Virus record (IMG/VR): IMGVR_UViG_3300005713_000004
Coordinates: 1-64,000 of that record
Source: a virus
Lineage: Duplodnaviria > Caudoviricetes
Strand: one strand, 5' to 3'
Length of the DNA stretch: 64,000 nt
Within the stretch, counting starts at the first letter, position 1; each line of letters opens with the position of its first letter. The notes beneath the pieces are model-generated. The model ran no database searches and was not told the origin of the DNA. It was given only the letters and a program-made list of their open reading frames with translations. Of this stretch, positions 7,191-32,266 are shown one piece after another. The position numbers were made by a program, and so were the translations under genes.

Positions 7191-7265
7191 TCTCTGTTGA
7201 GTTGTCCCGCCGGGGTGTTCCCCCCGACATGACAGACTCTACACGGTCGCCGTAGGTCTCCACAA
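7191..7265 (-). promoter_or_regulatory. promoter (TTGTGG-18-TAGAGT) plus hairpin and boxA-like leader GGGACAACTCAACAGAGA
   Basis: Repeat-family match. Confidence 0.7.
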
Positions 7266-7271
7266 GGGGGG

Positions 7272-7613
7272 TCATCCGACGAGTTCGTACCCGCCCTCGT
7301 CGTCGAGCAGTACCAGCCCCACCGCGAGCCGGACCGGGACCGTGGACACGTCCTCGACCTGCCAGCCCACCGCCCAGCCGTTCGCCTCCGCTTCGGTCCG
7401 GTCGCCCTCAATCCGGCCGTGACACCCCGACGTGTTCCCCATCCCGCACACCGCGAGCAGCCACGCAGGCGAGTGGATCGCCCGTCGGGTCCCGCCCATC
7501 CCCCGGCCGCGCCGGTGGTGGACGTTCGAGGCGGGAGCGGCTCCACAGACCTCGCACATGCCGCCCGCGCGGTCGAGGACGATCCGCCAGTCCCGCGCGC
7601 TCACCGAAGCCAC
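7272..7613 (-). CDS. HNH endonuclease
   Basis: CEVC...HHRRGRGMGG...C...CHG.IE. Confidence 0.85.
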   Translation of the reverse strand: MASVSARDWRIVLDRAGGMCEVCGAAPASNVHHRRGRGMGGTRRAIHSPAWLLAVCGMGNTSGCHGRIEGDRTEAEANGWAVGWQVEDVSTVPVRLAVGLVLLDDEGGYELVG

Positions 7614-7819
7614 GAGGACAGCCTACGGGCTCCGTGGGACAGCGGCCGGGGGTCTGACCGACCCCCGGCCGGGTGCAAGCGCCGACGAGCGCTCCGATCC
7701 CGACCGAGGGGTGGGAGCAGGTCGTCTCGCGCGCTCACCCCGCACTGCTCGCGTCCTCGCCCACCCGTCACGGCGGCTACTCCGCGAGATGGTGAGCAGC
7801 GTACGCCCGGACACGACGA

Positions 7820-7846
7820 AGCCCCCCGCCGGATGGGCGGGGGGCT
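7820..7846 (-). terminator. GC-rich hairpin, probable terminator
   Basis: 11-bp stem just after the stop of 7852-8223. Confidence 0.6.
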
Positions 7847-7851
7847 GGTCG

Positions 7852-8223
7852 TTAGCAGGTGCAGCCGGGGAGAGCCTCCGCGACCGTCATCTCCGCCCGG
7901 ACCTCGTCCGCGTGCTGGCAGGCGGGGAGTTCGGCGAGGATCCGGGTCGTGATCCGGTTGAGCCGGTCGGCTTCCTCGACCACGTAGGCGGCGAGGTTGC
8001 GGGCCCGGAACTCGCTCCGGCGGGTGGCGACCCGCTCCGCGTCGCGGCGCAGGTTGCCGTGCCACGTGTGGAGGTTGTAGACCCGGTGGCTCCGGAGACA
8101 CGCCCAGTCGCGGTTCATGTCGCCGGTCTCTGCGTCTCCGGCGGGCCCGCACATCAGTGGGAGCGCGAGGAGGCTCGCAACGGCGGCGGCGGCGCGGGTG
8201 GCGTGCTCGGCGATGGTGTCCAT
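7852..8223 (-). CDS. hypothetical protein
   Basis: Own promoter, leader and downstream hairpin. Confidence 0.75.
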   Translation of the reverse strand: MDTIAEHATRAAAAVASLLALPLMCGPAGDAETGDMNRDWACLRSHRVYNLHTWHGNLRRDAERVATRRSEFRARNLAAYVVEEADRLNRITTRILAELPACQHADEVRAEMTVAEALPGCTC

Positions 8224-8233
8224 CGTGTGTGCC

Positions 8234-8312
8234 TCTCTGTTGAGTTTTCAACCCCGGGAGGAGTTCCCCTCCCGACATGAGAGACATTACCCGCCTCGCC
8301 GTGGGTTGTCAA
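8234..8312 (-). promoter_or_regulatory. promoter TTGACA-17-TAATGT plus hairpin and boxA-like TTGAAAACTCAACAGAGA
   Basis: Repeat-family match. Confidence 0.8.
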
Positions 8313-8333
8313 CCCGACGAGGTCACGAGATCG

Positions 8334-8573
8334 TCACGGCGCCCAGCACGCCCGGCACATCTCCCCCCGAAGCGCCTTGAGCGCCGTCGCCCACGGCCGG
8401 ACGACCGGGGACAGCGGCGAGGCGGTCCCGGAGCCCAGCGCCCCACAGGCGGCTCGCCACGAGGTCGTGGTGATGCCGTTCGGGTGGGTCGTCGAGGTCG
8501 AGTCCTCGCAGCGGTGGAGCGGGTAGCCGACGACCTGCGCGCCGGTGTGATTGAACGCGGGATGACGGGCCAC
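8334..8573 (-). CDS. hypothetical protein (Cys/His-rich)
   Basis: GGAGG RBS upstream. Confidence 0.55.
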   Translation of the reverse strand: MARHPAFNHTGAQVVGYPLHRCEDSTSTTHPNGITTTSWRAACGALGSGTASPLSPVVRPWATALKALRGEMCRACWAP

Positions 8574-8672
8574 GAGGGCACCTCCGAACGAAGCGGGGGC
8601 CCGGAGCCGCTCCCCCGTGGCTCCGGGCCCCCTGGTGAGCAGCAGCGGCCCCCCGGCCCACTGCTGCGAGGT

Positions 8673-8873
8673 CTACGTGTGGTCGCTGGTGAACTGCGTG
8701 CAGCGGCAGTTCACCGGCCGGACCCAGCGCCGACCGTCGAGGTCGTATCGCTGGTGGGTCCGCGCGTCCTGTGCGTCGGAGTCCTCCACCGGCCCTTCGG
8801 TCGGGCCGTCGCGCTTCGGCGGCTCCGGCTCGCCCTCGTGTCCGAACTGAATCCAGCGGTTCCGCCAGCCCAT
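8673..8873 (-). CDS. small hypothetical protein
   Basis: GGGAGG RBS; downstream of promoter at 8922-8949. Confidence 0.55.
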   Translation of the reverse strand: MGWRNRWIQFGHEGEPEPPKRDGPTEGPVEDSDAQDARTHQRYDLDGRRWVRPVNCRCTQFTSDHT

Positions 8874-8921
8874 CGGTGCCTCCCGTGGTGGGTGGGGGGC
8901 TCGTTCCCCCCGACACCAGTA

Positions 8922-9068: not shown

Positions 9069-9221
9069 TCACTTCGACTTCCTCGACGGGTCCACATAGT
9101 CGGTGTCCGGCTTGACCGGCTCCGGCCACCCGCTCTTCTTGTCCGACCGCTGGTCGTCACGCGGACACGTGCACGTCACGCCCCGCGATGCGCAGTCCCT
9201 TACGCAGGCCACGAAGGGCAC
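9069..9221 (-). CDS. small Cys-containing peptide
   Basis: MPFVACVRDCASRG...; preceded by hairpin and boxA-like ACCAACCCAACAGAGAG. Confidence 0.5.
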   Translation of the reverse strand: MPFVACVRDCASRGVTCTCPRDDQRSDKKSGWPEPVKPDTDYVDPSRKSK

Positions 9222-9430
9222 CGCCTCTCTGTTGGGTTGGTCCCCGGGGCCGCTGGTCGCGACCCCGGGGAGGTGGGCGCTAGTCCTCGCCCTGCTCGCG
9301 CTCCCGCTGGTCGCGGTCGTCGCTGTCGACCTTGTCGGGGGTTCGCTGGTCGCCCCCGCTGGGCTTCGGGTCGGTGATGGTCTCGCTCCCTTCGTGTGGT
9401 GGCGCCGGGCCTCTCGGCCCGACAGGAGTA

Positions 9431-9635: not shown

Positions 9636-9925
9636 CGGTCTACCTCCTGTGCGTGGTGGTTGTGGTGGCTCCACCTCGACCCCCTGCACCGGCGAGCGGT
9701 GGTCTGTGGGGGTCGAGGTGGGGGGAGTGCCCTCCGGGCCGGTCGCCGCTCCCCGCGACGCTCACTCCCATCCCGGGACACCGACCGTCCATGCCCCGAA
9801 GGGGTCTCGGCCGGATCCTCCGTGAGCGGAGGTTGCCGGGCTCGTCCCCGGCTGCCACCGTCCCGTAGGACACCCCGGGTCCGTGCCCCTGTGGGGGTCA
9901 CCCGGAGATCCTCCCGGTGGGGGAG

Positions 9926-10047
9926 GTTATTGAGTTATCAAGGGGCGGAGCCCCGGGGGGCTTCCGTCCCCCTCATGAGAACTACTTTACACGGTTTCCG
10001 GGGAGAGTCAAGCCGAATCCGTAGGCCGATCGGGTGACTTCCCACGG
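9926..10047 (-). promoter_or_regulatory. promoter TTGACT-16-TAAAGT with upstream GTCACCCGATCGG box and boxA-like leader TTGATAACTCAATAAC
   Basis: Repeat-family match. Confidence 0.8.
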
Positions 10048-15418: not shown

Positions 15419-17031
15419 TGGCCACGTCCTCGACGAGTCGCCGCGCGGACGCGACCCCGGCGGCTCCGCCCACCCCCCCGGCTTCGCGTCCGGCGCAGGG
15501 TCGGCCGCAGCGGACCGACGCCCCCGGCGCCGACGAGGGCGTGGACACGAAGCGGCCCGGCCTGCCGGTGTGGGTCCTCGCGGTGCCCGCCGTGCTGGCC
15601 GTGGCGATGTGGATCGGGTGGGCGTTCGGGTGGGGGTGGGGTGTCGCGTTCGCGGTGGCCGCGCTGCTCGCCCTGCTCGTGTGGCGGCTGCTGGTCGCCC
15701 GGAAGGCCCGCGACGCGAAGAGCACGAAGGACGGGAAGGGCAGCCGGTCGGCCGCCCGGAGGGAGCGCAGGTGGAACAGGCGGACGACGGACGGGTCTAC
15801 CCGTTCGGGACAGCCGGGGTCGGCTCGTGGTCTTCGGGGGCTGGCACAGCGGCTGCGTGCGAGGGCTGCGGGGAACCCGTTCCGTGGCGGTACCTCCGGT
15901 GGGGGCCGGTCGAGCGGGACGGGCGGGTCGTCGTCGAGCGGCTCGAACCGGCGTGGCACCCGGCGTGCGGGCGGCGGGCCGCGTGGCAAGGGCTCCGGGC
16001 TGATGTCGCGACGGCGCGGGATGCGGTCGTCCTCGTCGGGGAAGGGCTCGCCCGGCTCGTCCCGCCGATCGTCGGGGCCGTCGGGCCCGTCCTCGAAGCG
16101 GGGGTCCCGATCGTCGTCGAGCGGTTCGGGGTGGTGGTCGCGACTGCGCGGGAAGTCGGGCGCGTCCACCTCGTCCAGGCGCGGCGGGGGCTCCGGTGGG
16201 TCCGGGTCGACCGGGTCGGGCGGGCGGCCGGGCGGTGGGTCGGGGGGCTCGTCGTCCGGGTGGACGCGGCGCGGCAGGAGTGGGCGCGCGGGGTGGGCTA
16301 CACCCGGGCGTGGCGGCGGGCACTCGACGGGGACGACGAGGTGGGTCCCGTGGTGGCGGCGCCGGGGTGGCGCGGGTGGGACGTCCTCCCCGGGGGGGAG
16401 CGGTTCCGGCCGCTCGCGCCGGGGGAGTTCGAGCGGTGGGGGTTCCGGTGGGACGGGCGGCACGCCTCCGTCATCCGGCGGGACCCGGCCGCAGGGGAAG
16501 CGGGCCCGGCTTCGGGGGCGGGGGTCCTCGACGCCTTCCGGCGGTTCGACGGGATCGGGCCCAGCGGGCACGGGGACGTGGACACGCCGTCGCAGCAGCG
16601 GCGGCGCCGACAGGGCCGCAGGCCCGGACAGGAGTAGCGACATGCCGAAGAGCAGCAGCGCGCCGCGTGGGCGGCGGGGGACCGGGGCCGGGCCGTGGGG
16701 CCCGATGGTGGACGCGGCGGCGAACGTCGCCCGCGCGTTCTCCGACCCGGTGGCCATGGAGGGCGTGAACGCGCTCGACACGGCCGGGGACGCGTGGGAG
16801 CAGATGGGCCGGTCCGTCAAGGTTGTGGGCGCCACGATCGCCGACGAGATCGATTGGGACCCGCGCGTGGCCCGGTTCTTCGAGGTGATGGGGGACGTCC
16901 TCATCCGGGCTGCGAAGCCCGCCCGCGACGGTGCCGCCGCTGTCCGGCGCGCGGAGCACGAGCGGATCAACAACGTGGAGGAGGGCGGCTCGCGCCGTCG
17001 CCGGTGGGATATCAGCGCCCACGACAACTAG
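15418..17031 (+). CDS. TraA-like accessory transfer protein (TM, long Gly/Ser/Arg linker, helical C-terminal domain)
   Basis: C-terminus AEHERINNVEEG...RWDISAHDN resembles proteins encoded just upstream of traB on actinomycete plasmids; position. Confidence 0.55.
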   Translation: MATSSTSRRADATPAAPPTPPASRPAQGRPQRTDAPGADEGVDTKRPGLPVWVLAVPAVLAVAMWIGWAFGWGWGVAFAVAALLALLVWRLLVARKARDAKSTKDGKGSRSAARRERRWNRRTTDGSTRSGQPGSARGLRGLAQRLRARAAGNPFRGGTSGGGRSSGTGGSSSSGSNRRGTRRAGGGPRGKGSGLMSRRRGMRSSSSGKGSPGSSRRSSGPSGPSSKRGSRSSSSGSGWWSRLRGKSGASTSSRRGGGSGGSGSTGSGGRPGGGSGGSSSGWTRRGRSGRAGWATPGRGGGHSTGTTRWVPWWRRRGGAGGTSSPGGSGSGRSRRGSSSGGGSGGTGGTPPSSGGTRPQGKRARLRGRGSSTPSGGSTGSGPAGTGTWTRRRSSGGADRAAGPDRSSDMPKSSSAPRGRRGTGAGPWGPMVDAAANVARAFSDPVAMEGVNALDTAGDAWEQMGRSVKVVGATIADEIDWDPRVARFFEVMGDVLIRAAKPARDGAAAVRRAEHERINNVEEGGSRRRRWDISAHDN

Positions 17032-17076
17032 GCCGCAGGGCCTAGGCAGTACCAACCACCACCACAGGAGGACCAC

Positions 17077-19377
17077 GTGTCGGAGACGCCTACCCGGATC
17101 ACGATCCCGCCCGCGCTGGGCTACCCGGTGTTGGGCGTCCTCGTCGTGTTCATCGCCGGGTGGCTCTACACGTTCGCCGGGGCGGAGCACTTCGCGCCGT
17201 GGTGGCTCCTGCTCGCCGTGCCGGTGCTGGGCTTCCTCGGCGCCGCGCTCGCCCGGACCTTGTGGGCGGACGTCGCGTACGGGGTCGCCCAGCAGCGGGC
17301 GGCGGTGTGGTTCGCGTGGGTCGCGGCGGCCGGGGCGGGGGCGTGGCTCACGTGGGCCGGGCTCGTCACCCCGGGCGCCGCGCTCCCGCTGCTCGTGTTG
17401 GGCGCCCTGCCGTTGTGGGGGTGGTTCGCGATCCTGTGCCTGCGGGCGCCGAAGGCCCACGCCCGGCAGGTCGAGCGCCGGGAGGAAGGGCGGCAGATCG
17501 TCCAAGAACGGTCGTGGCGGACGATCCTCGACCGGTCGGGGTCGGAGGACGTGGTGATCACGGAGGTCCGAGAGCACCGGGCCGGGATGGTCCTCACGGT
17601 CGAGCCGGACCCGGACGCGGCGAAGTTCCCGACGTACGACGAGTTCGCGGGCCGGGCGCCGTCGATGGCGACGCAGGCGGCGATGCACTACCGGCGGACC
17701 TCGAACACGCGGCTTCCGAAGAACTGCGTCCGGACGGAGCCGGGCCGCGACGACGCAGAGTTCCTCGTCCACATCACGATGCGGGACGTGTTCGGGGCCT
17801 CGACGTGGTACCAGCCGGACGAGGTCCCGGGGGACATCGCGGACCCGGTGGATCTGGGCGAGTACGAGGACGCGGCACGGCTGCTGCTCCCGCTGGACGC
17901 GAACACGAAGATCGTGGGGGCGACGGGGGCGGGGAAGTCCAACCTCGTGAACAACATCATCGGGCGGATCACCGGCACCATGAACGCGCTCGTGTGGGTC
18001 GCGGCCACGGACAAGTTGGTCCCGCTCGTGTGGCCGTGGCTGCGGGCGTGGCTGTCGGGGAAGACGAGCCGCCCGATCCTCGACTACGTCGCTGGGCAGG
18101 ACATCGACTCCGTGTTGCGGCTGCTGCGGGCGACGTACCGGCTCGTCTGCGAGCGCAACGCCCGACTTGAGGACGAGTCGAAGATCCGGCCGACGGCGGA
18201 CCTGCCGGTGGTGTTCGTGATCCTCGAAGAGGTGTCCCACCTCACCGACTTCCCGGACACCATCCGGACCCACGACGGGATCGACTGCACGGCTTCGGAC
18301 CTGCTCAAGATGATTGCGCAGGCGGACCGGTCGGCGGGGGTCCGGCTGTTCATGCTGTCGCAGTACGGGATCAACGCGGCTCTCGGCGACCGGGCGTCGG
18401 AGTTGATCCGCAACATCACGTGCAGGATCTGCCTTCGGACCATGGAATCCCACGACGGGTTCCGGACCCTGCCGGGTCTGCCGTCGACCGTGGACACGAC
18501 CTCGCTCGCAAACTTCACGATGTACGTGCAGCCGAACACCGAAGAGGCGCGGGCGTTCCCGGCGAAGGCGCCGGAACTGGACGGCGCCGAGCAGGTCGAG
18601 CCGGTCGCGATCGGGAACACCCGGTGGCGCCCGGCCGGGGTCGAGCCGGAGGTGGCCGCGCTGCTCGGCCTCGACTACGAGCGGCGGTGGGCGTCCTCGC
18701 GCCTGCCGATCCTGGCGGCCCCGGTGGCGAGGCGCGGGTGGGAGTGGCCCGGCGAGCAGGTGGCGCCGGTCCCGGTCCCGGCGGCGCCGGTCGACGAGGT
18801 GGACGAGGGGTCGCCCGTGGCGGGCGGCCCGAACGATGGGGGGGACAGCGTGGATACGACCATGAGTCCGGAGGACGAGGACGCGTTCCGGCGGCTGCTC
18901 GGCGGCGACGAGCCGGAGCAGCGGCAGGGACCGGCTGCGGCTGCGTCGGTCGCGGTCGACCGGGACGAGGACACGAGCGGGCGCGCGGCGCCGTTCGAGG
19001 TCCCCGACTTCGGCGCGGAGATGGCGGAGATGGAGGCGCTCGCGGCGGACATCGCGGCGAACCCGTTCGTCCCGGGTCGCGATCAGGACGCGACCCGGGA
19101 GGCTGGTCCGGGTCGCCCGGTCCCCGACCCGCTCGACCGGGTCGTCCGGTGGCTGGACTCCGTCCCGGTCGACGAGGACGCGTGGGTCCGGACGGAGGAA
19201 CTCGTGTTCCGGATCGGGTGGGACCGGGACGCGGCGGCTCTCGGTCGGGCGCTCGCGAAGTTCCCGGGCGTCCGGTCGGACAACCTGCCCCGGCAGTTCG
19301 ACCCGCAGCAGCGGAAGGGCTACCCGGTCCGGATGCTTCGGGAGGCGGCGACCCGGTACCGGTTCGGGTCGCCGTAG
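17077..19377 (+). CDS. traB: TraB-type FtsK/SpoIIIE DNA translocase (actinomycete conjugation ATPase)
   Basis: N-terminal TM helices, Walker A GATGAGKS, Walker B VFVILEE, DRSAGVRLFMLSQ arginine-finger region, acidic linker, C-terminal winged-helix-like domain. Confidence 0.88.
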   Translation: MSETPTRITIPPALGYPVLGVLVVFIAGWLYTFAGAEHFAPWWLLLAVPVLGFLGAALARTLWADVAYGVAQQRAAVWFAWVAAAGAGAWLTWAGLVTPGAALPLLVLGALPLWGWFAILCLRAPKAHARQVERREEGRQIVQERSWRTILDRSGSEDVVITEVREHRAGMVLTVEPDPDAAKFPTYDEFAGRAPSMATQAAMHYRRTSNTRLPKNCVRTEPGRDDAEFLVHITMRDVFGASTWYQPDEVPGDIADPVDLGEYEDAARLLLPLDANTKIVGATGAGKSNLVNNIIGRITGTMNALVWVAATDKLVPLVWPWLRAWLSGKTSRPILDYVAGQDIDSVLRLLRATYRLVCERNARLEDESKIRPTADLPVVFVILEEVSHLTDFPDTIRTHDGIDCTASDLLKMIAQADRSAGVRLFMLSQYGINAALGDRASELIRNITCRICLRTMESHDGFRTLPGLPSTVDTTSLANFTMYVQPNTEEARAFPAKAPELDGAEQVEPVAIGNTRWRPAGVEPEVAALLGLDYERRWASSRLPILAAPVARRGWEWPGEQVAPVPVPAAPVDEVDEGSPVAGGPNDGGDSVDTTMSPEDEDAFRRLLGGDEPEQRQGPAAAASVAVDRDEDTSGRAAPFEVPDFGAEMAEMEALAADIAANPFVPGRDQDATREAGPGRPVPDPLDRVVRWLDSVPVDEDAWVRTEELVFRIGWDRDAAALGRALAKFPGVRSDNLPRQFDPQQRKGYPVRMLREAATRYRFGSP

Positions 19378-19567
19378 GCTGTCCGGGTCGTCCCGTCCTG
19401 CTACGCGACCCGCTACGTGGGTCGGGGCGACCCGGACAGCCACCGGCGCGCGGCGAGCCGGAGCGGGTCGCCGGACCGGGGTGGACGACCCGGGAGAACC
19501 TGCTCCACGCGAGAGGCCCGGCCCCGACGGGGGCCGGGCCTCTCTGCTGTCCCGGGTTAGCGACCCG
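19071..19567. repeat. clt-like cluster of CGACCCG repeats (about 15 copies)
   Basis: Counted in the traB 3' end and downstream intergenic DNA; resembles the GACCCGGA TraB recognition repeat of pSVH1. Confidence 0.65.
19511..19544. terminator. bidirectional hairpin between convergent units
   Basis: Perfect 15-bp stem, 4-nt loop. Confidence 0.75.
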
Positions 19568-19898
19568 CGAGCCAATCGTTGAACCGGTCGCGAGCCTCTT
19601 CCTCGGACCCGGCGTAGTAGCCGCCGCCGGGGCCTTCCTCGAAGTAGCGTTCCGCCGCGCGCTCCGCCGCGATCTCCGCCCGGTGCTCGGCCTCCCATTC
19701 CTGCTGAATCGCCCAGCAGTGTCGGACGTGGGCAACGGTGGCGTGGCGGACGATCGCGTCCGGCCCGGTGACGCCGTAGCCCCGTTCGGTGTCGGAGCAG
19801 GATCCGCAGCGGACGCCGTCCGCTGTGCGCTCCGGGAGGCGGTAGTACTCGATCTCGTCGATCGGGCGGGCGGTGGCGGCCGTGGTGAGGGTCGACAT
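19557..19898 (-). CDS. hypothetical protein (CxxC, HxxxC)
   Basis: GGAGG RBS after boxA-like leader. Confidence 0.7.
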   Translation of the reverse strand: MSTLTTAATARPIDEIEYYRLPERTADGVRCGSCSDTERGYGVTGPDAIVRHATVAHVRHCWAIQQEWEAEHRAEIAAERAAERYFEEGPGGGYYAGSEEEARDRFNDWLAGR

Positions 19899-19916
19899 CG
19901 TGTCCTCCGGTGAGGG

Positions 19917-19990
19917 TCTCTGTTGAGTTTTCAACCGGACCCGGTGGGCCCGACACGAGAGACATTACACGGCGACCCACGACCACGCAA
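19917..19990 (-). promoter_or_regulatory. promoter TTGCGT-17-TAATGT plus hairpin and boxA-like TTGAAAACTCAACAGAGA
   Basis: Repeat-family match. Confidence 0.75.
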
Positions 19991-20034
19991 GCCCCCTGCG
20001 CGACCCGTTGCAGATCGAGACCCCACCGTGACCC

Positions 20035-20157
20035 GCAACGGTTGCGCAACCGTTGCGCCCAGCCGTGGACACGGCCAAAGCCCCCTCCCCACCTGCGAAA
20101 ACACCGCGAGGGGGGAGAGGGCTCCGCGTGCAACGGTTACAGCCGCAACGGTTACAG
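20035..20157. repeat. GCAACGGTT palindrome and direct repeats
   Basis: 22-bp perfect palindrome at 20035-20056; GCAACGGTTACAG twice (20130, 20145). Confidence 0.7.
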
Positions 20158-20721
20158 GACCAGCAATGCGACCCCCACCCACGACATCACCGACACCGGG
20201 AAGTACAGCCACGCGAGGCGGCTCGCTTCGACCTCGGACCCCGTCGAGAACACCCGCCCGATCCGCAGCCGCCCATCCCGAACCGCCGTGTAGTACCCCC
20301 GGTCGCGGCCGGGCCACGGGATCCCCGACATCGTCCGAGCGTCCCCCCACAGGTGGACGCAGCAGCCCACGAACACGCAGGCCCACCACCACACCGCCAT
20401 GACCGGGCCGCCCAGCGGCGCCGGGACCAGCAGCGCCAGCAGCGCCACCGGGAGCCCGAACACCGCCGCTGCGGACCTCGTGTGCGTCCACCCCCTGTGC
20501 TCCACGAACAGGCACAGCAGCCACGACACGAGCCGCGTCGCCGGTCCGAGCGAGTGGGTCACCGTCGAGCCCGGGTGGTCGAGGTCCGGCAGGAGAGCGG
20601 AGTACCCGACGAGGATCCCGCCGAGCACGGCCGCCGGGAGCGGGACGCCCAGCCCGTGACCCGCCCCGGCGACCCACGACCCGGCGGCGAGCCCGGTCGT
20701 GAGGTGGCTCCGGGCCATCAT
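20152..20721 (-). CDS. YdjM-family membrane metal-dependent hydrolase
   Basis: RSH...ALLPDLDH...HRGWTH...HLWGDA motifs. Confidence 0.85.
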   Translation of the reverse strand: MMARSHLTTGLAAGSWVAGAGHGLGVPLPAAVLGGILVGYSALLPDLDHPGSTVTHSLGPATRLVSWLLCLFVEHRGWTHTRSAAAVFGLPVALLALLVPAPLGGPVMAVWWWACVFVGCCVHLWGDARTMSGIPWPGRDRGYYTAVRDGRLRIGRVFSTGSEVEASRLAWLYFPVSVMSWVGVALLVL

Positions 20722-21644
20722 GACGCGGACTCCGCGTCCTGCTCGACCGGAGCCGGGACGGGTCGCACAGCGGGTCGCGCGTCCCGGGCCTGCGCGAGCA
20801 GCCGGGTTGCCTTCGACCCGCCGCAACCCGCGTGCTCCCGGACCGCCTTCGCGGTCGGCGGGCGGCCGACCCGGTCCCACTCCGACCCGATCCACGCGAC
20901 CGTCGCCGGGTCGTCCGGGTCGCCGACCCGGGTTGACCCGGCGGGTCGTGCCGGGTTGCGGGTCGCCGGGACCCGGGTCGGGGCCTTCCGGTCGGGACGG
21001 GTCGCCGGGTCGGCGACGGCCGGGACGGGTCGCGAGACGACCTGCTCGACCCGGGTCGTCGGGCGGGCGGCGAGCGCGGCGCCTACGGCGTCCCGGATCG
21101 CGTCCCGCTGCTCGACCCGGATCGCGTCCCGGATGCGCTCCGGGTCGGCGGAGACCGGGATGCCGACGAGGTGGGTCACGGGCCACGTCGTGTCCACGTC
21201 CGCGCGCATCCGGGCGACGTAGTCGCGGACGCGGCCCAGCATGACGGCGACGAGTTCGAGGGTGACCGCGAACGAGATCGGGGCCCACACGGCGGCGGCG
21301 AGGCGGCCGACGCCCTCGCCGACGGACGGGGCGCCGAACGCGTCGGCGCTCGCGAGGTTCGCGGCGATGGTGCCGATGAACCCGACCCCGAACGCGAGCC
21401 ACGGGACGAAGCCGATCGGCTGCTGCGCCCAGCGGCGGGAGTACATCACCACGAGCGCGGCGATCAACATCCCGTCGGTGGTGAGCGGGAGCCACGCGGC
21501 GCGGGACTCCGCCTCGCCGTAGGTCCGGAACACCTCGTACGCGTGGTGGTAGGAAGCGACGGCGGCGGGCCCGCCGACGGACGCGAGGATCGCGGCGATA
21601 CCGAGCAGCATCGCGGCGACCGCGAGAGCGGTTCGGGTGGTCAC
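20718..21644 (-). CDS. DUF2637-family spread-type membrane protein with C-terminal HTH
   Basis: ASYHH...GE...AWLPLTTDG, four TM helices, PPTAKAVREHAGCGGSKATRLL winged helix. Confidence 0.8.
   Translation of the reverse strand: MTTRTALAVAAMLLGIAAILASVGGPAAVASYHHAYEVFRTYGEAESRAAWLPLTTDGMLIAALVVMYSRRWAQQPIGFVPWLAFGVGFIGTIAANLASADAFGAPSVGEGVGRLAAAVWAPISFAVTLELVAVMLGRVRDYVARMRADVDTTWPVTHLVGIPVSADPERIRDAIRVEQRDAIRDAVGAALAARPTTRVEQVVSRPVPAVADPATRPDRKAPTRVPATRNPARPAGSTRVGDPDDPATVAWIGSEWDRVGRPPTAKAVREHAGCGGSKATRLLAQARDARPAVRPVPAPVEQDAESAS
20759..21147. repeat. second CGACCCG cluster (about 20 copies) inside the DUF2637 gene
   Basis: Encodes ATRP/DP-rich linker; mostly direct repeats on the coding strand. 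Confidence 0.7.
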
Positions 21645-22268: not shown

Positions 22269-22314
22269 CTGTCCGGTCCTTCCGTTGGGGCCGCTGTCCG
22301 GCCCGACACGACAG

Positions 22315-23369: not shown

Positions 23370-23451
23370 TCGCGGCGGTGGGACTCGAACCCACGACCTC
23401 CGGGGCCTCCCCCGGCGCGCTGCTCGTGATCCGCTGGTCGTACGCCCGGCG
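23370..23451 (-). pseudogene. tRNA-like element (intact T-arm, degenerate remainder)
   Basis: AGGTC variable loop and GTGGG-TTCGAGT-CCCAC T-arm; 5-bp anticodon stem with non-canonical 6-nt loop; acceptor stem only partly paired. Confidence 0.45.
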
Positions 23452-25413: not shown

Positions 25414-25460
25414 CTCTCATGTCGGGGGGAACAGCCCCCCACCACCACCCGGAGGTCCCG

Positions 25461-25850
25461 ATGATCGCCACCACCGCCACCACCACCCCCTACGCCCCGG
25501 CGAAGTTCGCCCGGGTCGTTGCCGCCCTGGTCCGGCAGTTCGCCGGGCTGGTCGTCGGCGCCGAGTGGGTCTCCGGGCTCGCGCTGGGCTGGGATGTCGA
25601 GATGTGGGCGCCGAAGGCGGACCACCTCTCGCTCGCGCTGTGCCCGGTCGAGGAGGACGGGTCCACCGGCGCAGCCGTGCGCCGGGCGACGATCGTCCCG
25701 GGCCAGTACCGGGCGTGGGAGGTCGTGGCCGACGGGATCGTGCTGGGCGAGTTCCACGGCCTCGACGCGGCGGTGAGCCACGCGCTCGACCACGTCGCGG
25801 TGCCGTGCTGGGCGCCGGTCCAGCATGACCACGACGCGTTCGCCGTGTAG
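25461..25850 (+). CDS. hypothetical protein
   Basis: GGAGG RBS; own cassette. Confidence 0.7.
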   Translation: MIATTATTTPYAPAKFARVVAALVRQFAGLVVGAEWVSGLALGWDVEMWAPKADHLSLALCPVEEDGSTGAAVRRATIVPGQYRAWEVVADGIVLGEFHGLDAAVSHALDHVAVPCWAPVQHDHDAFAV

Positions 25851-25879: not shown

Positions 25880-25989
25880 CCGTGGGTTGTCACCCGATCG
25901 GACCACCTCCCCGGCTTGACTTCCCCCGGGTCGCCGTGTAATGTCTCTCTTGTCGGACACGGAGCCCGGCGGGACAACTCAACAGAGGG
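25880..25989 (+). promoter_or_regulatory. GTCACCCGATCGG box, TTGACT-17-TAATGT promoter and boxA-like leader
   Basis: Repeat-family match. Confidence 0.8.
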
Positions 25990-25997
25990 AGTCAGGG

Positions 25998-26243
25998 ATG
26001 AGCGAGTTCACCCCCACCGGCCGCATGATCGTCTACGTTGAGTGGGACGTCCGGGCCGGGAAGCACGGGGCCTCCACCGGCGACGTGTGGGCGCGAGCGG
26101 ACCTGATCGGCGGCGGGAAGGCGGAGTTCGCCGGGACCGACCAGCAGGTCACGGACTGGGCGCTCAACGTCATGACCGCAGCCGGAGCGCGCGGGATCGC
26201 CTGCGAGATCCGGGACGGTCGGGGGCTGGTGACGCAGGACTGA
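25998..26243 (+). CDS. hypothetical protein
   Basis: Own cassette. Confidence 0.7.
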   Translation: MSEFTPTGRMIVYVEWDVRAGKHGASTGDVWARADLIGGGKAEFAGTDQQVTDWALNVMTAAGARGIACEIRDGRGLVTQD

Positions 26244-26397: not shown

Positions 26398-26506
26398 CCG
26401 TGGAATGTCACCCGATCGGACCATGGTCCGGGCTGGACAACCCACGGTCGACCGGGTAATGTCCCTCGTGTCGGGCCGGTCGGCCCGGCGGGACAACTCA
26501 AGAGAG
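26398..26506 (+). promoter_or_regulatory. box, TGGACA-17-TAATGT promoter and boxA-like leader
   Basis: Repeat-family match. Confidence 0.75.
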
Positions 26507-26517
26507 ATGGTGCAGAG

Positions 26518-26670
26518 ATGATCGAGGTCACCGTGGTTACCCTGCTCCGCCTGATCGCCGCTCGCGCGGACGGTCGGATCGCGGGCCCCACCGTTGACGC
26601 GAAGATCGCCGAACTCACCGCCCGGTTCACCGCCTCCGGCGAGATCGTCGCGGTCCTGAGCGCCGAGTGA
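26518..26670 (+). CDS. small hypothetical protein
   Basis: First gene after the leader. Confidence 0.6.
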   Translation: MIEVTVVTLLRLIAARADGRIAGPTVDAKIAELTARFTASGEIVAVLSAE

Positions 26671-29246: not shown

Positions 29247-29293
29247 CTTTCATGTCAGGGGGGAACGGCCCCCCGGGAAGATCGGAGAACATC

Positions 29294-29579: not shown

Positions 29580-29632
29580 TTGACAACACCACGCCGATCG
29601 TGTATCGTCTACAGGTAACCGTGCTCGACCCC
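29580..29632 (+). ncRNA. promoter TTGACA-17-TATCGT plus candidate small RNA (CTACAGGTAACCG..CTCGA)
   Basis: No ORF before the next promoter; leader repeated at 30064 and inverted at 29128. Confidence 0.35.
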
Positions 29633-30040: not shown

Positions 30041-30093
30041 TTGACTTCCCAACGGCGACCGTGTATCGTCTACAGGTAACCGGGCTCGATTCC
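30041..30093 (+). ncRNA. promoter TTGACT-17-TATCGT plus candidate small RNA, further copy
   Basis: Same 5' sequence as 29603. Confidence 0.35.
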
Positions 30094-30114
30094 GGCAGGT
30101 CGTCGCCGGGACCT

Positions 30115-30228
30115 CCGTGGGATGTCACCCGATCGGCCAACCCTTCGGGGTTGACAACCCACGGCGACCCACGTAATGTCTACATCACCGGGAGGGACAC
30201 CCCGCCCGGACAACTCAACAGAGGGAGG
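30115..30228 (+). promoter_or_regulatory. box, TTGACA-17-TAATGT promoter, hairpin and boxA-like leader
   Basis: Repeat-family match. Confidence 0.8.
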
Positions 30229-30233
30229 TTCCG

Positions 30234-30389
30234 ATGGGATCCGGAAACGGTGATCAGGAGGACATCACGGAGGACGGGACGTGGTCCTGTCCCATGTGCG
30301 GCGAGAGCGGCACATGCGTGACGGGTGACGAGGGCGCAGCCCTCACGGCCCACGTTGCGTTCGGGTGTCCGGCGGCGCAGGCCGACTGA
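30234..30389 (+). CDS. small Zn-finger peptide (51 aa; not in the ORF track)
   Basis: GGGAGG RBS; WSCPMCG...H...C. Confidence 0.65.
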   Translation: MGSGNGDQEDITEDGTWSCPMCGESGTCVTGDEGAALTAHVAFGCPAAQAD

Positions 30390-30466
30390 TCACCACCCGC
30401 CCCCGGCTTCGGCCGGGGGCGGGACCGGGTCCCGGATCCACCCTCGCCACGAAGGGAGGGCCGGTC

Positions 30467-31039
30467 ATGGACTGGCGGCACGGCGCCCACTGCCGGGGCG
30501 CGAGCGAGCCGGAGGTGTGGTTCCCGGTCGACGAGGACCAGGGCCACGACGCGCCGGGTGTGGTTCGGGCGCGCCTCGCCTGCGCGCCGTGCCCGGTCCG
30601 GGCGGAGTGCCTGTCATGGGCCTTCGAGTCCGGGCAGACGGCCGGTGTGTGGGGCGGGATGTCGACGCCGGAGCGCCGGGCCCTGCGCGCCCCGGAGCGG
30701 CTCCGTGTGGCCGCTGCTGCGGCGTCGGACCGGCGAGCCCGGGAGGACGCACAGCGGGACGCACAGGAGGACGCAGGCGCCAGCACGGAGGGCGGGGCGG
30801 GGGACACCCTGCCTCGCCCTCGTCGGCGGCGGGGTGGCCAGCCGCCGGGGACGACGCGGGCCCACCGGTCCGGGTCGGTCGGCCGCTGCGCCACCTGCTC
30901 GAAGCGCCTCGACCTGCGCGCGGACGGGCGAGTCGTCCGGCACGACCGGGTGTTGGACGGGAAGCGTGGGCACTGCCCCGGCTCCGGCGAGGTGTCGGCG
31001 GTCGAGGCGCTTCCCGGGTCGGGGCGTGTCCACGGGTAG
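30467..31039 (+). CDS. whiB: WhiB-family Fe-S transcription regulator with C-terminal extension
   Basis: C...WFP...CAPCPVRAECL...GVWGG...ERR. Confidence 0.9.
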   Translation: MDWRHGAHCRGASEPEVWFPVDEDQGHDAPGVVRARLACAPCPVRAECLSWAFESGQTAGVWGGMSTPERRALRAPERLRVAAAAASDRRAREDAQRDAQEDAGASTEGGAGDTLPRPRRRRGGQPPGTTRAHRSGSVGRCATCSKRLDLRADGRVVRHDRVLDGKRGHCPGSGEVSAVEALPGSGRVHG

Positions 31040-31066
31040 CCGTGACATACTCCGCATGGCGGGGGG

Positions 31067-31095
31067 TTGCGTAACCCCCGGCGAGCGTGTAGTGT
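31067..31095 (+). promoter_or_regulatory. promoter TTGCGT-17-TAGTGT; -35 flanked by GGGGG/CCCCC
   Basis: Repeat-family match. Confidence 0.7.
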
Positions 31096-31151
31096 CATCT
31101 ATGGTGGGAGAGGGTCTCTCGCCAGAACGAGACGAGAGGGAGGGGACAGCA

Positions 31152-31529
31152 GTGGCAAAGCGCAAGGAACCGATGGCGCCGATCAGCTACAAGACGGCGG
31201 GCGCGGAGTGGGGCAACGCGGCTGCGGCTGCGGCCCTGTGCGTGGGCAGCGACGGCAAGGCGATCTCCGCCGACACGTTCCAGTGGTACGTGCGAACCGC
31301 CGACCCGAACGGCGACAACCCCCCGCCGAAGGCGGAGCGGGTGGACCCGCACACCCGGCAGAGCATGTACCGGCTCAAGCGGGTACGGGAGTGGCACGCG
31401 AAGCGGCCCGGCCGTGGGAATTGGGGCGGCATCGGCGCCCGCGCCCGCCTGCCGAAGGACCAGCAGGGCGAGCCCGTGGACACGCCCGCCCCGGAGGCGG
31501 GCGCGGAGCCCGCCTCGCAGGACGCGTGA
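31152..31529 (+). CDS. AlpA/excisionase-like HTH protein
   Basis: ISADTFQWY...PPP...MYRLKRVREWHAKRPGRG. Confidence 0.65.
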   Translation: MAKRKEPMAPISYKTAGAEWGNAAAAAALCVGSDGKAISADTFQWYVRTADPNGDNPPPKAERVDPHTRQSMYRLKRVREWHAKRPGRGNWGGIGARARLPKDQQGEPVDTPAPEAGAEPASQDA

Positions 31530-31780
31530 CCAGCATGCACGGGGCCCTCTCCTCGCCGGTGATCCTGCCGGTCGTGGGGAGGGCTCCGCTGTATCGGGAT
31601 GCGGTCGCGTGGCTCGAAGCGCTGCGGGACGTCGCCGACGCGAACGGCCACGGGCAGGCGGCCCGGTACGCGGTCGCCGTGCTCGACCTCGTCGCCGCTG
31701 CGCACGACGCGGCCGACGCCGGGTACGGTCCGCCGGACCTGCTCGCCGCGCTGCTGCCCTTCCCCCGGTCCGCGCTGTGA
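31526..31780 (+). CDS. hypothetical protein
   Basis: Overlapping junction. Confidence 0.55.
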   Translation: MTSMHGALSSPVILPVVGRAPLYRDAVAWLEALRDVADANGHGQAARYAVAVLDLVAAAHDAADAGYGPPDLLAALLPFPRSAL

Positions 31781-32150
31781 CCCGCTCGTGGTCGCACGCG
31801 GCGAGGACCATCGACGCGGTCCCGCTGTACCGGCTGCGGATCGAGGCGGCGCAGGTGGACCCGCTGCGTCACCTCGCCCTGCCGGGGCAGCGGGCCGGGT
31901 ACCTCGAAGGGGTCGCCGCCGTGCACCTCGAACCGGACGACTTCGGGTCGCCTGCCCATCGGGTCGAGTGGCGGGAGCAGCGGGGCGGCTCGTGGTTCAC
32001 CATCGGGTACGCGGCCGACGAGCCGGGCGGCGAGCAGGATCCGGCGGCGGACCCGCGCGTCGAGGACGTGATGCGGCGCCTCGACCGGGGGCGGGTCGGG
32101 GTGCTGACCGGGGACCCGGTGTCGCTGCTCGCGGCGGAGGTCCGGCGTCT

Positions 32151-32266
32151 CCGTGGATTGTCACCCGATCGGCCCACCTCCGGGGTTTGACAACCCACGG
32201 CTAGCCGGGTAATGTCTCTCTCATCGGGCGGGGCGCTCCCCCTCCCGGGTTGATAACTCAACAGAG
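32151..32266 (+). promoter_or_regulatory. box, TTGACA-17-TAATGT promoter, hairpin and boxA-like TTGATAACTCAACAGAG
   Basis: Repeat-family match. Confidence 0.8.

What the first reader, a model, noticed from the sequence alone, without database searches (positions are those of the whole stretch)
7191..32266. rRNA-operon-like leaders (hairpin then boxA-like AACTCAACAG) on phage mRNAs
Seen: nine leaders (7191, 8234, 9222, 9926, 19917 on minus; 25971, 26490, 30208, 32250 on plus) contain a variable-sequence GC hairpin. It is followed by (TTGA[A/T]|GGAC)AACTCAACAGAG or a close variant and, in most cases, then the RBS; eight lie right after a family promoter. Established (from memory, to be verified): actinobacterial rrn leaders contain TTGAGAACTCAA(C/T)AG at boxA, preceded by a boxB hairpin; NusB/NusE bind boxA for antitermination, and the same segment helps form the RNase III stalk. 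Inference: the phage mimics host rrn leaders to recruit the Nus antitermination complex, stabilise transcripts, or titrate Nus factors away from host rRNA synthesis.
Basis: partly seen in the sequence, partly recalled or inferred. Interest (0 to 1): 0.75.

Follow-up and report, generated by a model that had tools for sequence, protein, structure and literature searches.

The report
Phage leaders copying host rRNA leader
An uncultured soil actinophage begins eight or nine of its early messages with a GC hairpin followed by a 12-base sequence identical to the most conserved part of the leader of actinobacterial ribosomal RNA operons. It probably does this to borrow a host transcription factor, and I found related copies in over 140 sequenced Streptomyces and Mycobacterium phages and no paper describing them.

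Summary
AACTCAACAGAG, or a one-mismatch variant, occurs 8 times in the 76.7-kb phage record against 0.43 expected. Every copy lies in a non-coding leader, is co-oriented with the gene, follows a GC hairpin and sits 10-19 nt before the start codon. A ninth degenerate copy lies at 9926-9940.

The rRNA comparison holds. TTGAGAACTCAAYAG lies 106-255 nt upstream of 16S in actinobacterial genomes. In four Streptomyces genomes 26 of 32 exact AACTCAACAG copies are the leaders of all 26 16S genes. A second copy precedes 23S.

The mimicry is widespread. R4-like Streptomyces phages carry a near-complete rrn promoter-plus-leader copy before their first early gene. Several Mycobacterium, Nocardia and Gordonia phages carry the full element near the right genome end or before a tmRNA gene.

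This phage keeps only the 3' part. The boxA core that binds NusB/NusE is absent from all copies, so it is not a canonical boxA. The retained segment matches the region reported as the NusA site in M. tuberculosis.

Function is untested. A translation-level role is a serious rival, because the motif always abuts the Shine-Dalgarno sequence.

Earlier work in this scan noted rrn-boxA mimicry in phiEco32-like coliphages and a cyanophage, and T7 has a proven boxA. I class this as a new variant of a known kind.

The parts
7176..7264 (-). Leader unit 1: promoter, 5' hairpin, motif and start of a 51-aa gene that heads a roughly 3.8-kb gene block
   Evidence: Promoter -10 TAGAGT at 7236-7241. Hairpin 7209-7228 (-14.9 kcal/mol, z -3.2). 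GGGAC plus AACTCAACAGAG at 7192-7203. ATG at 7176-7178..
8221..8312 (-). Leader unit 2: promoter, hairpin, TTGAA plus motif, and start of a 123-aa gene
   Evidence: -35 TTGACA at 8307-8312 and -10 TAATGT at 8284-8289. Hairpin 8254-8275 (-16.4 kcal/mol). TTGAAAACTCAACAGAG at 8235-8251, matching 14 of 15 bases of the rrn block. ATG at 8221-8223..
9210..9271 (-). Leader unit 3, internal with no promoter directly upstream: 13-bp hairpin after a stop codon, one-mismatch motif, small ORF
   Evidence: Hairpin 9241-9271 (-31.2 kcal/mol, z -5.2). AACCCAACAGAG at 9227-9238. GTG at 9219-9221 or 9210-9212..
9926..10011 (-). Leader unit 4, degenerate variant: promoter, hairpin, TTGATAACTCAATAAC, then a second hairpin and no convincing ORF for about 300 nt
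   Evidence: TTGACT-16-TAAAGT at 9984-10011. Hairpin 9941-9972 (-23.2 kcal/mol). Variant motif at 9926-9940. The downstream ORF has a GC3 of only 0.71.
19896..19990 (-). Leader unit 5: promoter, hairpin, TTGAA plus motif, and start of a 113-aa gene
   Evidence: -10 TAATGT at 19962-19967. Hairpin 19935-19953 (-12.5 kcal/mol). TTGAAAACTCAACAGAG at 19918-19934. ATG at 19896-19898..
25916..26000 (+). Leader unit 6: promoter, weak hairpin, GGGAC plus motif, and start of an 81-aa gene
   Evidence: -35 TTGACT at 25916-25921 and -10 at 25939-25944. Hairpin 25950-25972 (-7.2 kcal/mol, z -0.2, weak). Motif at 25976-25987. ATG at 25998..
26434..26520 (+). Leader unit 7: promoter, hairpin, GGGAC plus one-mismatch motif, and start of a 3-gene block
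   Evidence: -10 at 26457-26462. Hairpin 26469-26490 (-17.3 kcal/mol). AACTCAAGAGAG at 26495-26506. ATG at 26518..
30151..30236 (+). Leader unit 8: promoter, hairpin, GGAC plus motif, and start of a 5-gene block that includes a WhiB-like gene
   Evidence: -35 TTGACA at 30151-30156 and -10 at 30174-30179. Hairpin 30188-30209 (-16.0 kcal/mol, z -3.6). Motif at 30212-30223. ATG at 30234. WhiB (PF02467, E 9.7e-18) at 30467-31039..
32187..32280 (+). Leader unit 9: promoter, hairpin, TTGAT plus motif, and start of a 135-aa gene
   Evidence: -35 at 32187-32192 and -10 at 32210-32215. Hairpin 32224-32248 (-16.2 kcal/mol). TTGATAACTCAACAGAG at 32250-32266. ATG at 32278..
29252..29280 (+). Control leader: same promoter family and 5' hairpin, but no motif
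   Evidence: Hairpin of -13.7 kcal/mol. The leader runs straight to GGAG and an ATG.
22283..22309 (-). Control leader: 5' hairpin without motif, heading a 3-gene, 2.2-kb block
   Evidence: Hairpin of -13.9 kcal/mol, z -2.3..
9400..9425 (-). Control leader: 5' hairpin without motif
   Evidence: Hairpin of -18.0 kcal/mol, z -3.5..
8890..8916 (-). Control leader: 5' hairpin without motif
   Evidence: Hairpin of -13.9 kcal/mol..
25419..25463 (+). Control leader: 5' hairpin (GGGGGG/CCCCCC stem) without motif, then an A/C-rich stretch, GGAGG and ATG
   Evidence: Read from the sequence printed. It was not folded with the tool.

Best explanation
The 12-mer AACUCAACAGAG is an RNA element taken from, or converged on, the most conserved block of the host's rRNA operon leader. 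It is placed on the phage's host-RNAP-transcribed early mRNAs.

Proposed mechanism (inferred): as the nascent leader leaves RNA polymerase, the single-stranded motif is bound by the host factor that reads the same sequence on pre-rRNA. That factor is most likely NusA, through its KH domains. NusA then stays tethered to the elongating polymerase in its rrn-type, termination-resistant mode. In that mode it no longer assists the U-less GC hairpin terminators, or Rho, that punctuate this 73% GC cassette array.

The copies lack the NusB/NusE-binding boxA core. I therefore read them as a minimal, NusA-only version of a nut-like site. The full boxB-boxA-boxC version is what R4-like and several Mycobacterium phages carry.

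[quoted passage not shown] It is most likely a 5'-terminal stabiliser against 5'-end-dependent RNases, because it also heads leaders that have no motif.

Shown here: the sequence identity with rrn leaders, the placement, the enrichment, and the spread among actinophages. Inferred: which factor binds, and what the binding does.
For: 1. Enrichment and placement. There are 8 copies against 0.43 expected, all in leaders and all co-oriented with the gene.

2. Identity with rrn.
Of 69 loci with enough downstream sequence, 59 have the 16S 5' end 106-255 nt downstream.
- In 4 complete Streptomyces genomes, 26 of 32 exact AACTCAACAG copies are the leaders of all 26 16S genes. Two more lie in rrn-leader-like sequences on a plasmid and on a chromosomal site I read as an integrated element. 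None is an ordinary mRNA leader.
- The phage therefore holds as many copies in 77 kb as a host does in 7-8 Mb.

3. A second rrn copy precedes 23S (TTGAGAACT[A/G]CACAGTG). The positions shared by the two rrn copies, AACT..ACAG.G, are exactly those invariant in the phage motif. This argues for a common reader rather than stalk pairing alone.

4. Other phages.
- Amela and about 117 R4-like Streptomyces phages have tandem rrn-like promoters, a hairpin and the full block 176 nt before the first early gene.
- PegLeg has it between tRNA-Trp and a tmRNA gene.
- Scherzo, MrMagoo, Bantam and PegLeg have it within about 1.5 kb of the right genome end on the leftward strand.
- Placement before untranslated RNA, or far from any start codon, fits a transcription-level role.

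5. Literature.
- In M. tuberculosis the element just 3' of boxA is part of a specific NusA binding site, with the trinucleotide AUA critical (PMC2724277; PMC6614797). In T-type leaders the only AUA nearby lies in ...CAATAG....
- NusA enhances readthrough on the M. tuberculosis rrn nut template (PMC12781872).
- T7 has a functional boxA behind its early promoters (PMC3709561).
Against: - The boxA core is missing. Its consensus is GYTCTTTAANA in gamma-proteobacteria, 8 nt of it are read by NusB-NusE, and the actinobacterial equivalent is GTT(C/G)(C/T)TTGAGA. It is absent from every copy and from the whole phage. A complete rrn-type antitermination complex is therefore unlikely to form.
- In this phage, and in 20 of 32 other high-GC phage contexts, the motif directly abuts the Shine-Dalgarno sequence and start codon. 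A transcription factor site does not require that.
- Motif-bearing promoters do not head significantly longer transcription units (Mann-Whitney p = 0.18).
- The C/T position is not strictly matched to the host. MeganTheeKilla and Stella are T-type Streptomyces phages.
- The host of this metagenomic phage is unknown.
- There are no RNA or binding data.
- The exact RNA used in the NusA structural work could not be read here.
Confidence: 0.45

Rival explanations
1. Factor-independent translation initiation region. The A/C-rich, unstructured 12-mer is a ribosome standby or enhancer segment just 5' of the Shine-Dalgarno sequence. It keeps the start site open in a 73% GC transcript, while the 5' hairpin stabilises the mRNA. 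The match to the rrn leader has no functional meaning.
For: - The motif ends 10-19 nt before the start codon in all 8 copies, and its AGAG tail runs into the SD.
- In other phages, 20 of 32 high-GC contexts have an SD and a start 7-21 nt after it, before unrelated genes such as an endolysin, a sigma factor and an HNH endonuclease.
- The hairpin is optional in those phages.
Against: - An exact 10-12-mer shared by unrelated phages and by every host 16S leader is more than low structure requires.
- Host mRNAs do not use it: no ordinary host mRNA leader among the 32 copies in 31 Mb of Streptomyces DNA.
- Leaders of the same promoter family are built without it.
- It shows no special complementarity to mature 16S rRNA (-10.4 kcal/mol against -10.1 +/- 1.6 for shuffles).
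- Full-length versions lie far from any start codon or before a tmRNA gene.
Confidence: 0.2
2. The same host factor binds, but the output is translational control, as at E. coli suhB. Nus-factor binding next to the SD loops the leader to RNA polymerase. This represses or times translation and exposes the message to Rho, tying phage early gene expression to the pool of free Nus factors, that is, to host growth state.
For: At suhB a boxA 6 nt from the SD gives Nus-dependent translational repression followed by Rho termination. Lambda nutL represses N translation in a similar way (PMC5725501). The phage motif is equally close to the SD.
Against: suhB regulation needs the NusB/E-binding boxA core, with point mutations at core positions abolishing it. 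That core is missing here. Repressing eight early operons has no obvious benefit.
Confidence: 0.13
3. Binding site for a phage-encoded regulator, acting on RNA or on DNA as an operator downstream of the start site. It would co-regulate a subset of the early cassettes.
For: The motif is multi-copy only in this phage; five other motif-bearing phages have a single exact copy. It marks a subset of an otherwise uniform promoter family. Many small ORFs nearby have no known function. The base of the hairpin, GTCGGG...CCCGG, is conserved in sequence and shows no covariation.
Against: The identical 12-mer occurs in unrelated phages and in all host rrn leaders. The motif is not palindromic. Its distance to the promoter varies with hairpin length while its distance to the SD does not. 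No relative with the same promoter and operator system was found for testing co-occurrence.
Confidence: 0.08
4. Decoy. Abundant early leaders either titrate NusA away from host rrn operons or pair in trans with the conserved spacer sequence (CTGTTGGGT) that normally pairs with the 16S leader. Either would disturb host ribosome synthesis.
For: Eight copies sit on promoters close to the TTGACA/TAnnnT consensus. The motif core is complementary to the conserved spacer segment, forming a 9-bp duplex with one G-U pair in 6 of the 9 rrn operons printed.
Against: The predicted trans duplex is not better than shuffled controls; 13% of shuffles do as well. Pairing in cis within pre-rRNA would outcompete it. 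Most other phages carry only one copy, which is too few to titrate anything.
Confidence: 0.04

Closest known systems
Actinobacterial rrn operon leader (boxB-like hairpin, boxA, boxC) and its NusA/Nus-factor complex
   Same: There is an exact 10-nt identity (AACTCAACAG), rising to 14 of 15 in three copies. A variable hairpin lies upstream, and the element sits on a host-RNAP transcript just after a strong promoter.
   Different: The 5' boxA core and the GU-rich tail (YGTG) are missing. The hairpin sits 2-7 nt from the motif rather than about 20 nt away. No stalk partner exists, and the motif is followed at once by an SD and a protein gene.
T7 early-region boxA (Savalia et al. 2010, as cited in PMC3709561) and lambda nutL/nutR
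   Same: A phage places a copy of the host rrn antitermination signal downstream of early host-RNAP promoters.
   Different: T7 and lambda keep the NusB/E-binding boxA core, and lambda adds an N-binding boxB. This phage keeps only the segment 3' of the core, repeats it 8-9 times, and fuses it to translation start regions.
rrn-leader copies in R4-like Streptomyces phages (Amela, Verse, Joe, Lannister and others) and in Mycobacterium phages PegLeg, MrMagoo and Scherzo. These were found here, and I found no paper describing them.
   Same: The same conserved block is present, and the phages infect the same host phylum.
   Different: Those phages have 1-2 copies with the full boxA. The copies usually sit in long untranslated leaders near the right genome end or before a tmRNA gene.
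E. coli suhB 5' UTR boxA (Baniulyte et al. 2017, PMC5725501)
   Same: It is an rrn-type signal on an mRNA a few nucleotides from the SD.
   Different: suhB has a full boxA and is repressed through NusB/E. It is a single cellular autoregulatory site.
Start-associated sequences (SAS/ESAS) of Cluster K mycobacteriophages (Pope et al. 2011, PMC3203893)
   Same: SAS is an asymmetric repeat in 11-19 copies, restricted to the non-structural genes. It lies a few bases before start codons, is often preceded by an inverted repeat, and has no known function.
   Different: SAS (GGGATAGGAGCCC) contains the SD itself and is absent from host genomes. ESAS arms do not covary as RNA. The motif here is upstream of the SD and is present in every host rrn leader.
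5'-terminal stabilising stem-loops of bacterial mRNAs, such as the ompA 5' UTR (named from my own knowledge, not checked here)
   Same: [quoted passage not shown]
   Different: The transcription start sites are inferred from promoter spacing only.

Membership tests
rrn-type boxA (NusB-NusE binding site) | The 8-11-nt core read by NusB-NusE. Consensus is GYTCTTTAANA in gamma-proteobacteria, and the aligned actinobacterial block is GTT(C/G)(C/T)TTGAGA. | tested here: not met
   No copy of GTT[CG][CT]TTGA occurs anywhere in the 76.7-kb record. The positions 5' of TTGA are taken by the 3' arm of the hairpin. Core definitions come, and the actinobacterial block.
rrn-type boxA (NusB-NusE binding site) | Located on the nascent transcript downstream of a promoter and upstream of the region to be antiterminated | tested here: met
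   Seven copies and the variant lie 26-42 nt after family promoters.
Actinobacterial rrn leader conserved block, 3' segment (reported NusA site, 'boxC' region of M. tuberculosis) | The sequence AACTCAA(C/T)AG immediately 3' of the boxA core | tested here: met
   Six copies match exactly and two have one mismatch. The same 10-mer lies in all 26 16S leaders of 4 Streptomyces genomes.
Actinobacterial rrn leader conserved block, 3' segment (reported NusA site, 'boxC' region of M. tuberculosis) | Specific binding by NusA KH domains | not testable with these tools
   Only literature statements for M. tuberculosis are available. The primary papers are not held.
Actinobacterial rrn leader conserved block, 3' segment (reported NusA site, 'boxC' region of M. 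tuberculosis) | GU-rich continuation (YGTG) after ...CAG | tested here: not met
   rrn leaders have YGTG at +15 to +18 in over 88% of 103 loci. The phage has AGAG or AGGG there, running into the SD.
16S processing stalk (RNase III stem) | A complementary partner on the same transcript | tested here: not met
   The host spacer carries CACGCTGTTGGGT, complementary to the leader. In the phage the only CTGTTGRGT sites are the reverse strands of the motifs themselves.
Lambda-type nut site | A boxB hairpin of conserved loop sequence bound by a phage N-like protein | tested here: inconclusive
   Hairpins are present, but their loops and upper stems differ between copies. No N-like protein was recognised among the 30 window proteins searched. 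Most small ORFs are unannotated.
Start-associated sequences (Cluster K SAS) | The repeat contains the SD, lies 3-7 bp from the start codon, and is absent from the host genome | tested here: not met
   The motif is upstream of the SD, ends 10-19 nt from the start codon, and is present at every host rrn operon.

The most novel reading that the evidence does not exclude
The short form defines a new class of phage leader element. It consists of the 5' hairpin where present, then the rrn-derived AACUCAACAGAG fused to the SD, with no boxA core. It would be a NusB/E-independent NusA tether placed at the translation start. It would either disable NusA-assisted termination at the U-less terminators typical of high-GC actinobacteria, or physically couple the polymerase to the first ribosome. 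This class is used by many unrelated actinophages before early and late genes alike, and is amplified to 8-9 copies in this phage.
Probability: 0.25. Interest if true: 0.8.

Novelty: new variant of a known kind. Interest (0 to 1): 0.6.

Why it matters
Phage use of the host rRNA antitermination signal is textbook for lambda and proven for T7. In the literature I could search it has not been described for phages of Actinobacteria, despite thousands of sequenced Streptomyces and Mycobacterium phages.

This work shows that the most conserved block of the actinobacterial rrn leader recurs in over 140 isolated actinophages and in many metagenomic ones. It recurs in two forms: a full promoter-plus-leader copy, and a truncated form fused to ribosome binding sites.

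If the truncated form binds NusA on its own, it would separate NusA's RNA-tethered role from the NusB/E pathway in a natural system. It would also help explain how phages transcribe through the U-less terminators of high-GC hosts, and it would give a compact expression part for Streptomyces engineering.

The question can be tested directly with cultured R4-like phages and standard Streptomyces or M. smegmatis genetics.

Tried and rejected
- Stalk mimic: rejected. The phage has no complementary partner sequence.
- Enhancer pairing with 16S rRNA: rejected. The duplex energy equals that of shuffled controls.
- Coding element or leaderless uORF starting at the NTG in front of GTCGGG: rejected. Frames and lengths are inconsistent, and 2 of the 7 promoter-proximal motif leaders have no start codon there.
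- Longer operons behind motif leaders: not supported (p = 0.18).
- Canonical U-tailed terminators: none in 3-14.5 kb or 19-34 kb, so terminator placement could not be used as a test.
- Rfam: no family matches the leaders.
- Column-wise covariation: MAFFT/RNAalifold aligns only the sequence-conserved stem base and finds 0 compensatory pairs. Support for the hairpins therefore rests on per-copy folds.
- Close relatives of this phage: none found by capsid in genomes, by an early protein or by the operator pattern in IMG/VR. Orthologous leaders could not be compared.
- RNA evidence: no RNA holder listed.
- Strict host-matched C/T covariation: rejected, because two Streptomyces phages are T-type.
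- Universality in the phylum: only 25 of 301 evenly sampled Actinomycetota genomes have the exact 15-mer, mostly the large genomes. Many of the sampled genomes are small, 1.3-3.5 Mb.
- Primary NusA-RNA papers: not held. Sequence-string literature searches found nothing relevant.
- The first 14-mer scan of IMG/VR was mostly chance hits in low-GC contigs.

Full report
WHAT THE WINDOW IS. The window is the first 64 kb of a 76,733-bp IMG/VR virus record, assembled from a soil metagenome, with 66-75% GC across 2-kb windows. It is a tailed actinophage. Terminase, portal, major head and tail proteins lie at 53-76 kb. The terminase is 37.6% identical to that of Streptomyces phage Kromp. The first 34 kb hold many small genes, a TraB/FtsK-like gene, a DUF2637 gene and a WhiB gene. 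No 16S gene or tRNA is present, so the host rrn leader had to be examined in bacterial genomes.

THE OBSERVATION. AACTCAACAG with up to one mismatch occurs 8 times against 0.43 expected, and 0 of 100 shuffles reach 8. The whole record adds no further copy of the 12-mer AACTCAACAGAG, even at two mismatches. All eight lie outside my gene calls and point toward the next gene. A start codon opening a high-GC3 ORF follows 10-19 nt after the 12-mer. The ninth site, TGATAACTCAATAAC at 9926-9940, is a degenerate variant with no convincing ORF behind it.

Seven sites and the variant follow a family promoter, TTGACA-N16/17-TA(A/G)(A/T/G)GT, of which the region holds about 25. The site at 9227 is internal, lying after a stop codon and a 13-bp hairpin.

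The promoter family feeds three kinds of leader:
- leaderless, with the ATG 7 nt after the -10;
- hairpin, motif and SD;
- hairpin and SD without the motif.

In the leaderless members the start codon sits 7 nt after the -10. The same spacing puts the likely 5' end of the hairpin leaders at or next to the G of GTCGGG, so the stem would begin within about three nucleotides of the 5' end. This is an inference.

Thirteen such hairpins fold at -7.2 to -31.2 kcal/mol, with z-scores from -0.2 to -5.2. Their upper stems and loops differ. Only the stem base is conserved in sequence, so a column-wise alignment finds no compensatory pairs.

THE rRNA COMPARISON. TTGAGAACTCAAYAG was scanned over one genome per prokaryote species. 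Of 69 loci with at least 500 nt downstream, 59 have the 16S 5' end 106-255 nt downstream. Most of the short loci end at contig edges, which is what I would expect where an assembly breaks at an rrn operon.

The conserved block is G(C/T)GT(C/G)(C/T)GTT(C/G/T)(C/T)-TTGAGAACTCAA(C/T)AG-(C/T)GTG. In four complete Streptomyces genomes the exact 10-mer occurs 32 times, and 26 of these are the leaders of all 26 16S genes. Two more lie in rrn-leader-like sequences on a 104-kb plasmid and at a chromosomal site I read as an integrated element. Four are chance hits in apparent coding DNA. Host mRNAs therefore do not use this sequence.

A second copy precedes 23S: GTCGTTG(C/T)TTGAGAACT(A/G)CACAGTGGACGCGAGC. 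The positions shared by the two rrn copies, AACT..ACAG.G, are the ones invariant in the phage.

The spacer also holds CACGCTGTTGGGT, which is complementary to the leader's ACTCAACAGCGTG (13 bp with one G-U pair). This fits the 16S processing stalk. A variable hairpin lies about 20 nt upstream of the block in rrn leaders.

The exact 15-mer was found in only 25 of 301 genomes sampled evenly across the phylum, mostly the large ones. It is therefore a feature of the large-genome actinobacteria in that sample, not shown for the whole phylum.

WHICH PART THE PHAGE KEEPS. The gamma-proteobacterial boxA consensus is GYTCTTTAANA (PMC5725501). Eight of its nucleotides are read by NusB-NusE (PMC3177189). 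Aligned to it, the actinobacterial boxA is GTT(C/G)(C/T)TTGAGA. The phage 12-mer begins at the last base or two of this core.

Three copies and the variant retain TTGA.A, and five retain only GA or AC. In all of them the 5' core is replaced by the 3' arm of the hairpin. No full core exists anywhere in the phage.

The retained segment is the stretch just 3' of the core. In M. tuberculosis the element following boxA is described as part of a specific, high-affinity NusA site bound by the two KH domains, with the trinucleotide AUA critical (PMC2724277; PMC6614797). In T-type leaders the only nearby AUA is in CAATAG. NusA is reported to enhance readthrough on the M. tuberculosis rrn nut template (PMC12781872). 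I could not read the primary papers, so the exact RNA used in that work is not verified here.

OTHER PHAGES. IMG/VR scans found 32 distinct high-GC contexts of AACTCAACAGAG. They fall into two classes.

The first class has the full block inside a long leader. One member is Streptomyces phage Amela (100% identity). There the block lies at 48806-48815 on the leftward strand, 176 nt before gp75, the first gene at the right end. It is preceded by two tandem promoters, a hairpin and GAGGAAGCGTCCGCACC. This closely parallels the Streptomyces rrn promoter and leader.

A 75-nt Streptomyces rrn leader query hit 122 phage records: 120 Streptomyces phages and 2 Gordonia phages. A Mycolicibacterium rrn leader query hit 25 records, of which 23 are Mycobacterium phages. 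Nearly all the listed hits lie in unannotated DNA.

Reading the sequences gave these placements:
- PegLeg has the full T-type block between tRNA-Trp and its tmRNA gene.
- Scherzo has it about 30 nt after a promoter-like site near the right end.
- MrMagoo, Bantam and PegLeg's second, one-mismatch copy lie within about 1.5 kb of the right end on the leftward strand; Nocardia phage P3.1 has it about 3 kb into a circular record.
- MeganTheeKilla copies the rrn promoter sequence as well.

The second class is the short form seen in this window. It runs: a -10 element, often a GTCGG-initiated hairpin, (TTGA[A/G])AACTCAACAGAG, GGAG, then a start codon 7-15 nt later. The genes that follow are unrelated: unknowns, an HNH endonuclease, a sigma factor and an endolysin. 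Five such phages have one exact copy each. This phage has eight or nine.

In these other phages a strong upstream hairpin is present in only about a third of contexts. The motif, not the hairpin, is therefore the constant part.

MECHANISM. The best-supported reading is that the motif is an RNA site for the host factor that reads the same sequence on pre-rRNA, most likely NusA. Bound to the nascent leader, NusA would hold the polymerase in an rrn-like, termination-resistant state. The grounds are as follows:
- the exact identity with a sequence that the host uses almost only in rrn leaders;
- the retention of precisely the positions shared by the 16S and 23S copies;
- the full-length versions in other phages that sit before untranslated RNA or far from start codons;
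- the published NusA data;
- the T7 precedent (PMC3709561).

The hairpin is best read as a separate 5'-end stabiliser, because it also heads motif-less leaders.

The weak points are these:
- the boxA core is missing;
- the motif always abuts the SD;
- motif-bearing promoters do not head longer transcription units (p = 0.18);
- there is no experimental evidence at all.

RIVALS. I considered four.
- A factor-independent translation enhancer fits the SD adjacency. It does not explain the exact identity with rrn, the absence from host mRNAs, or the lack of 16S complementarity.
- A suhB-like translational control by Nus factors (PMC5725501) fits the position but needs the missing core.
- A phage-encoded regulator fits the multi-copy state in this phage, but not the sharing with unrelated phages and with the host.
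- A decoy role is the least supported.

NOVELTY. Phage copies of rrn boxA are known for lambda and T7. Earlier follow-ups in this scan reported them in phiEco32-like coliphages and a cyanophage; I did not re-test those. Searches of the held literature for boxA together with Streptomyces phage, mycobacteriophage or actinobacteriophage found nothing relevant.

The nearest described actinophage feature is the Cluster K start-associated sequence. It differs in containing the SD and in being absent from the host (PMC3203893).

I class the finding as a new variant of a known kind. It is an rrn-leader mimic that has lost the NusB/E core, is fused to translation starts, and is amplified to 8-9 copies. 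It sits within a wider set of actinophage rrn-leader mimics for which I found no description.

Noticed in passing
window 25880-25935, 26398-26455, 30115-30172, 32151-32208 and others: Many family promoters are preceded by CCGTGG(G/A)(A/T)TGTCACCCGATCGG. The first 14 bases of that upstream box are the inverted repeat of the promoter's own -35 region (TTGACAACCCACGG). GTCACCCGATCGG occurs 9 times exactly. This looks like an operator pair bracketing the -35, or a divergent promoter half.
   Followed up: partly
window 27541, 28088, 28567 (+); 13032, 12670, 11419 (-): Six members of the same promoter family are leaderless. The ATG lies 7 nt after the -10, and most of the encoded N-termini begin MTNT or MNN.
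   Followed up: partly
window 29580-29608 and 30041-30069 (+): Second promoters (TTGAC[A/T]-17-TATCGT) lie about 100 nt upstream of the promoters at 29703 and 30174. These are tandem promoters, as in rrn operons.
   Followed up: no
window 9640-9940 (-): After the degenerate motif at 9926-9940 comes a second hairpin (CCTCCC...GGGAGG) and about 300 nt without a convincing ORF (GC3 of 0.71). It may be a non-coding RNA or a long leader.
   Followed up: no
window 23371-23419 (-): Weak Rfam hits to a tRNA-like RNA (mascRNA, 25.6 bits) and to the 3' end of tmRNA (E 0.034). A tRNA-like fold may lie in an intergenic region. ARAGORN finds no tRNA.
   Followed up: no
L334 (Streptomyces phage Amela, NC_028904) 48630-49000, leftward strand: R4-like phages carry two tandem rrn-like promoters, a hairpin and the full rrn boxA block 176 nt before their first early gene. 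About 117 related Streptomyces phage records share this region.
   Followed up: partly
L335 (Mycobacterium phage PegLeg, NC_021299) 54636-54650: The full rrn-type block lies between tRNA-Trp and the phage's tmRNA gene. It may act as an antitermination signal for a stable-RNA cluster. A second, one-mismatch copy lies at 79543 near the right end.
   Followed up: partly
L241 / L340 (Streptomyces plasmid, G002:C2:66839) and L245 / L341 (G004:C1:2752949): A 104-kb Streptomyces plasmid and a probable integrated element carry rrn-leader-like sequences. The plasmid copy matches the rrn leader over about 37 nt, including the boxA core. Both lie ahead of a conserved but doubtfully coding stretch.
   Followed up: partly
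window 15771-21611: A TraB/FtsK-like protein (17077-19377), a DUF2637 protein (Pfam family of unknown function) and a YdjM-like membrane protein sit inside a tailed-phage genome. This is a plasmid-like module.
   Followed up: no
L252, L257, L315, L293, L046, L269, L345 and this window: In unrelated actinophages the leader begins (T)GTCGG or GTCAGG a few bases after the -10. Streptomyces rrn promoters also read TAGAGTCGG. This may be a preferred initial transcribed sequence.
   Followed up: no
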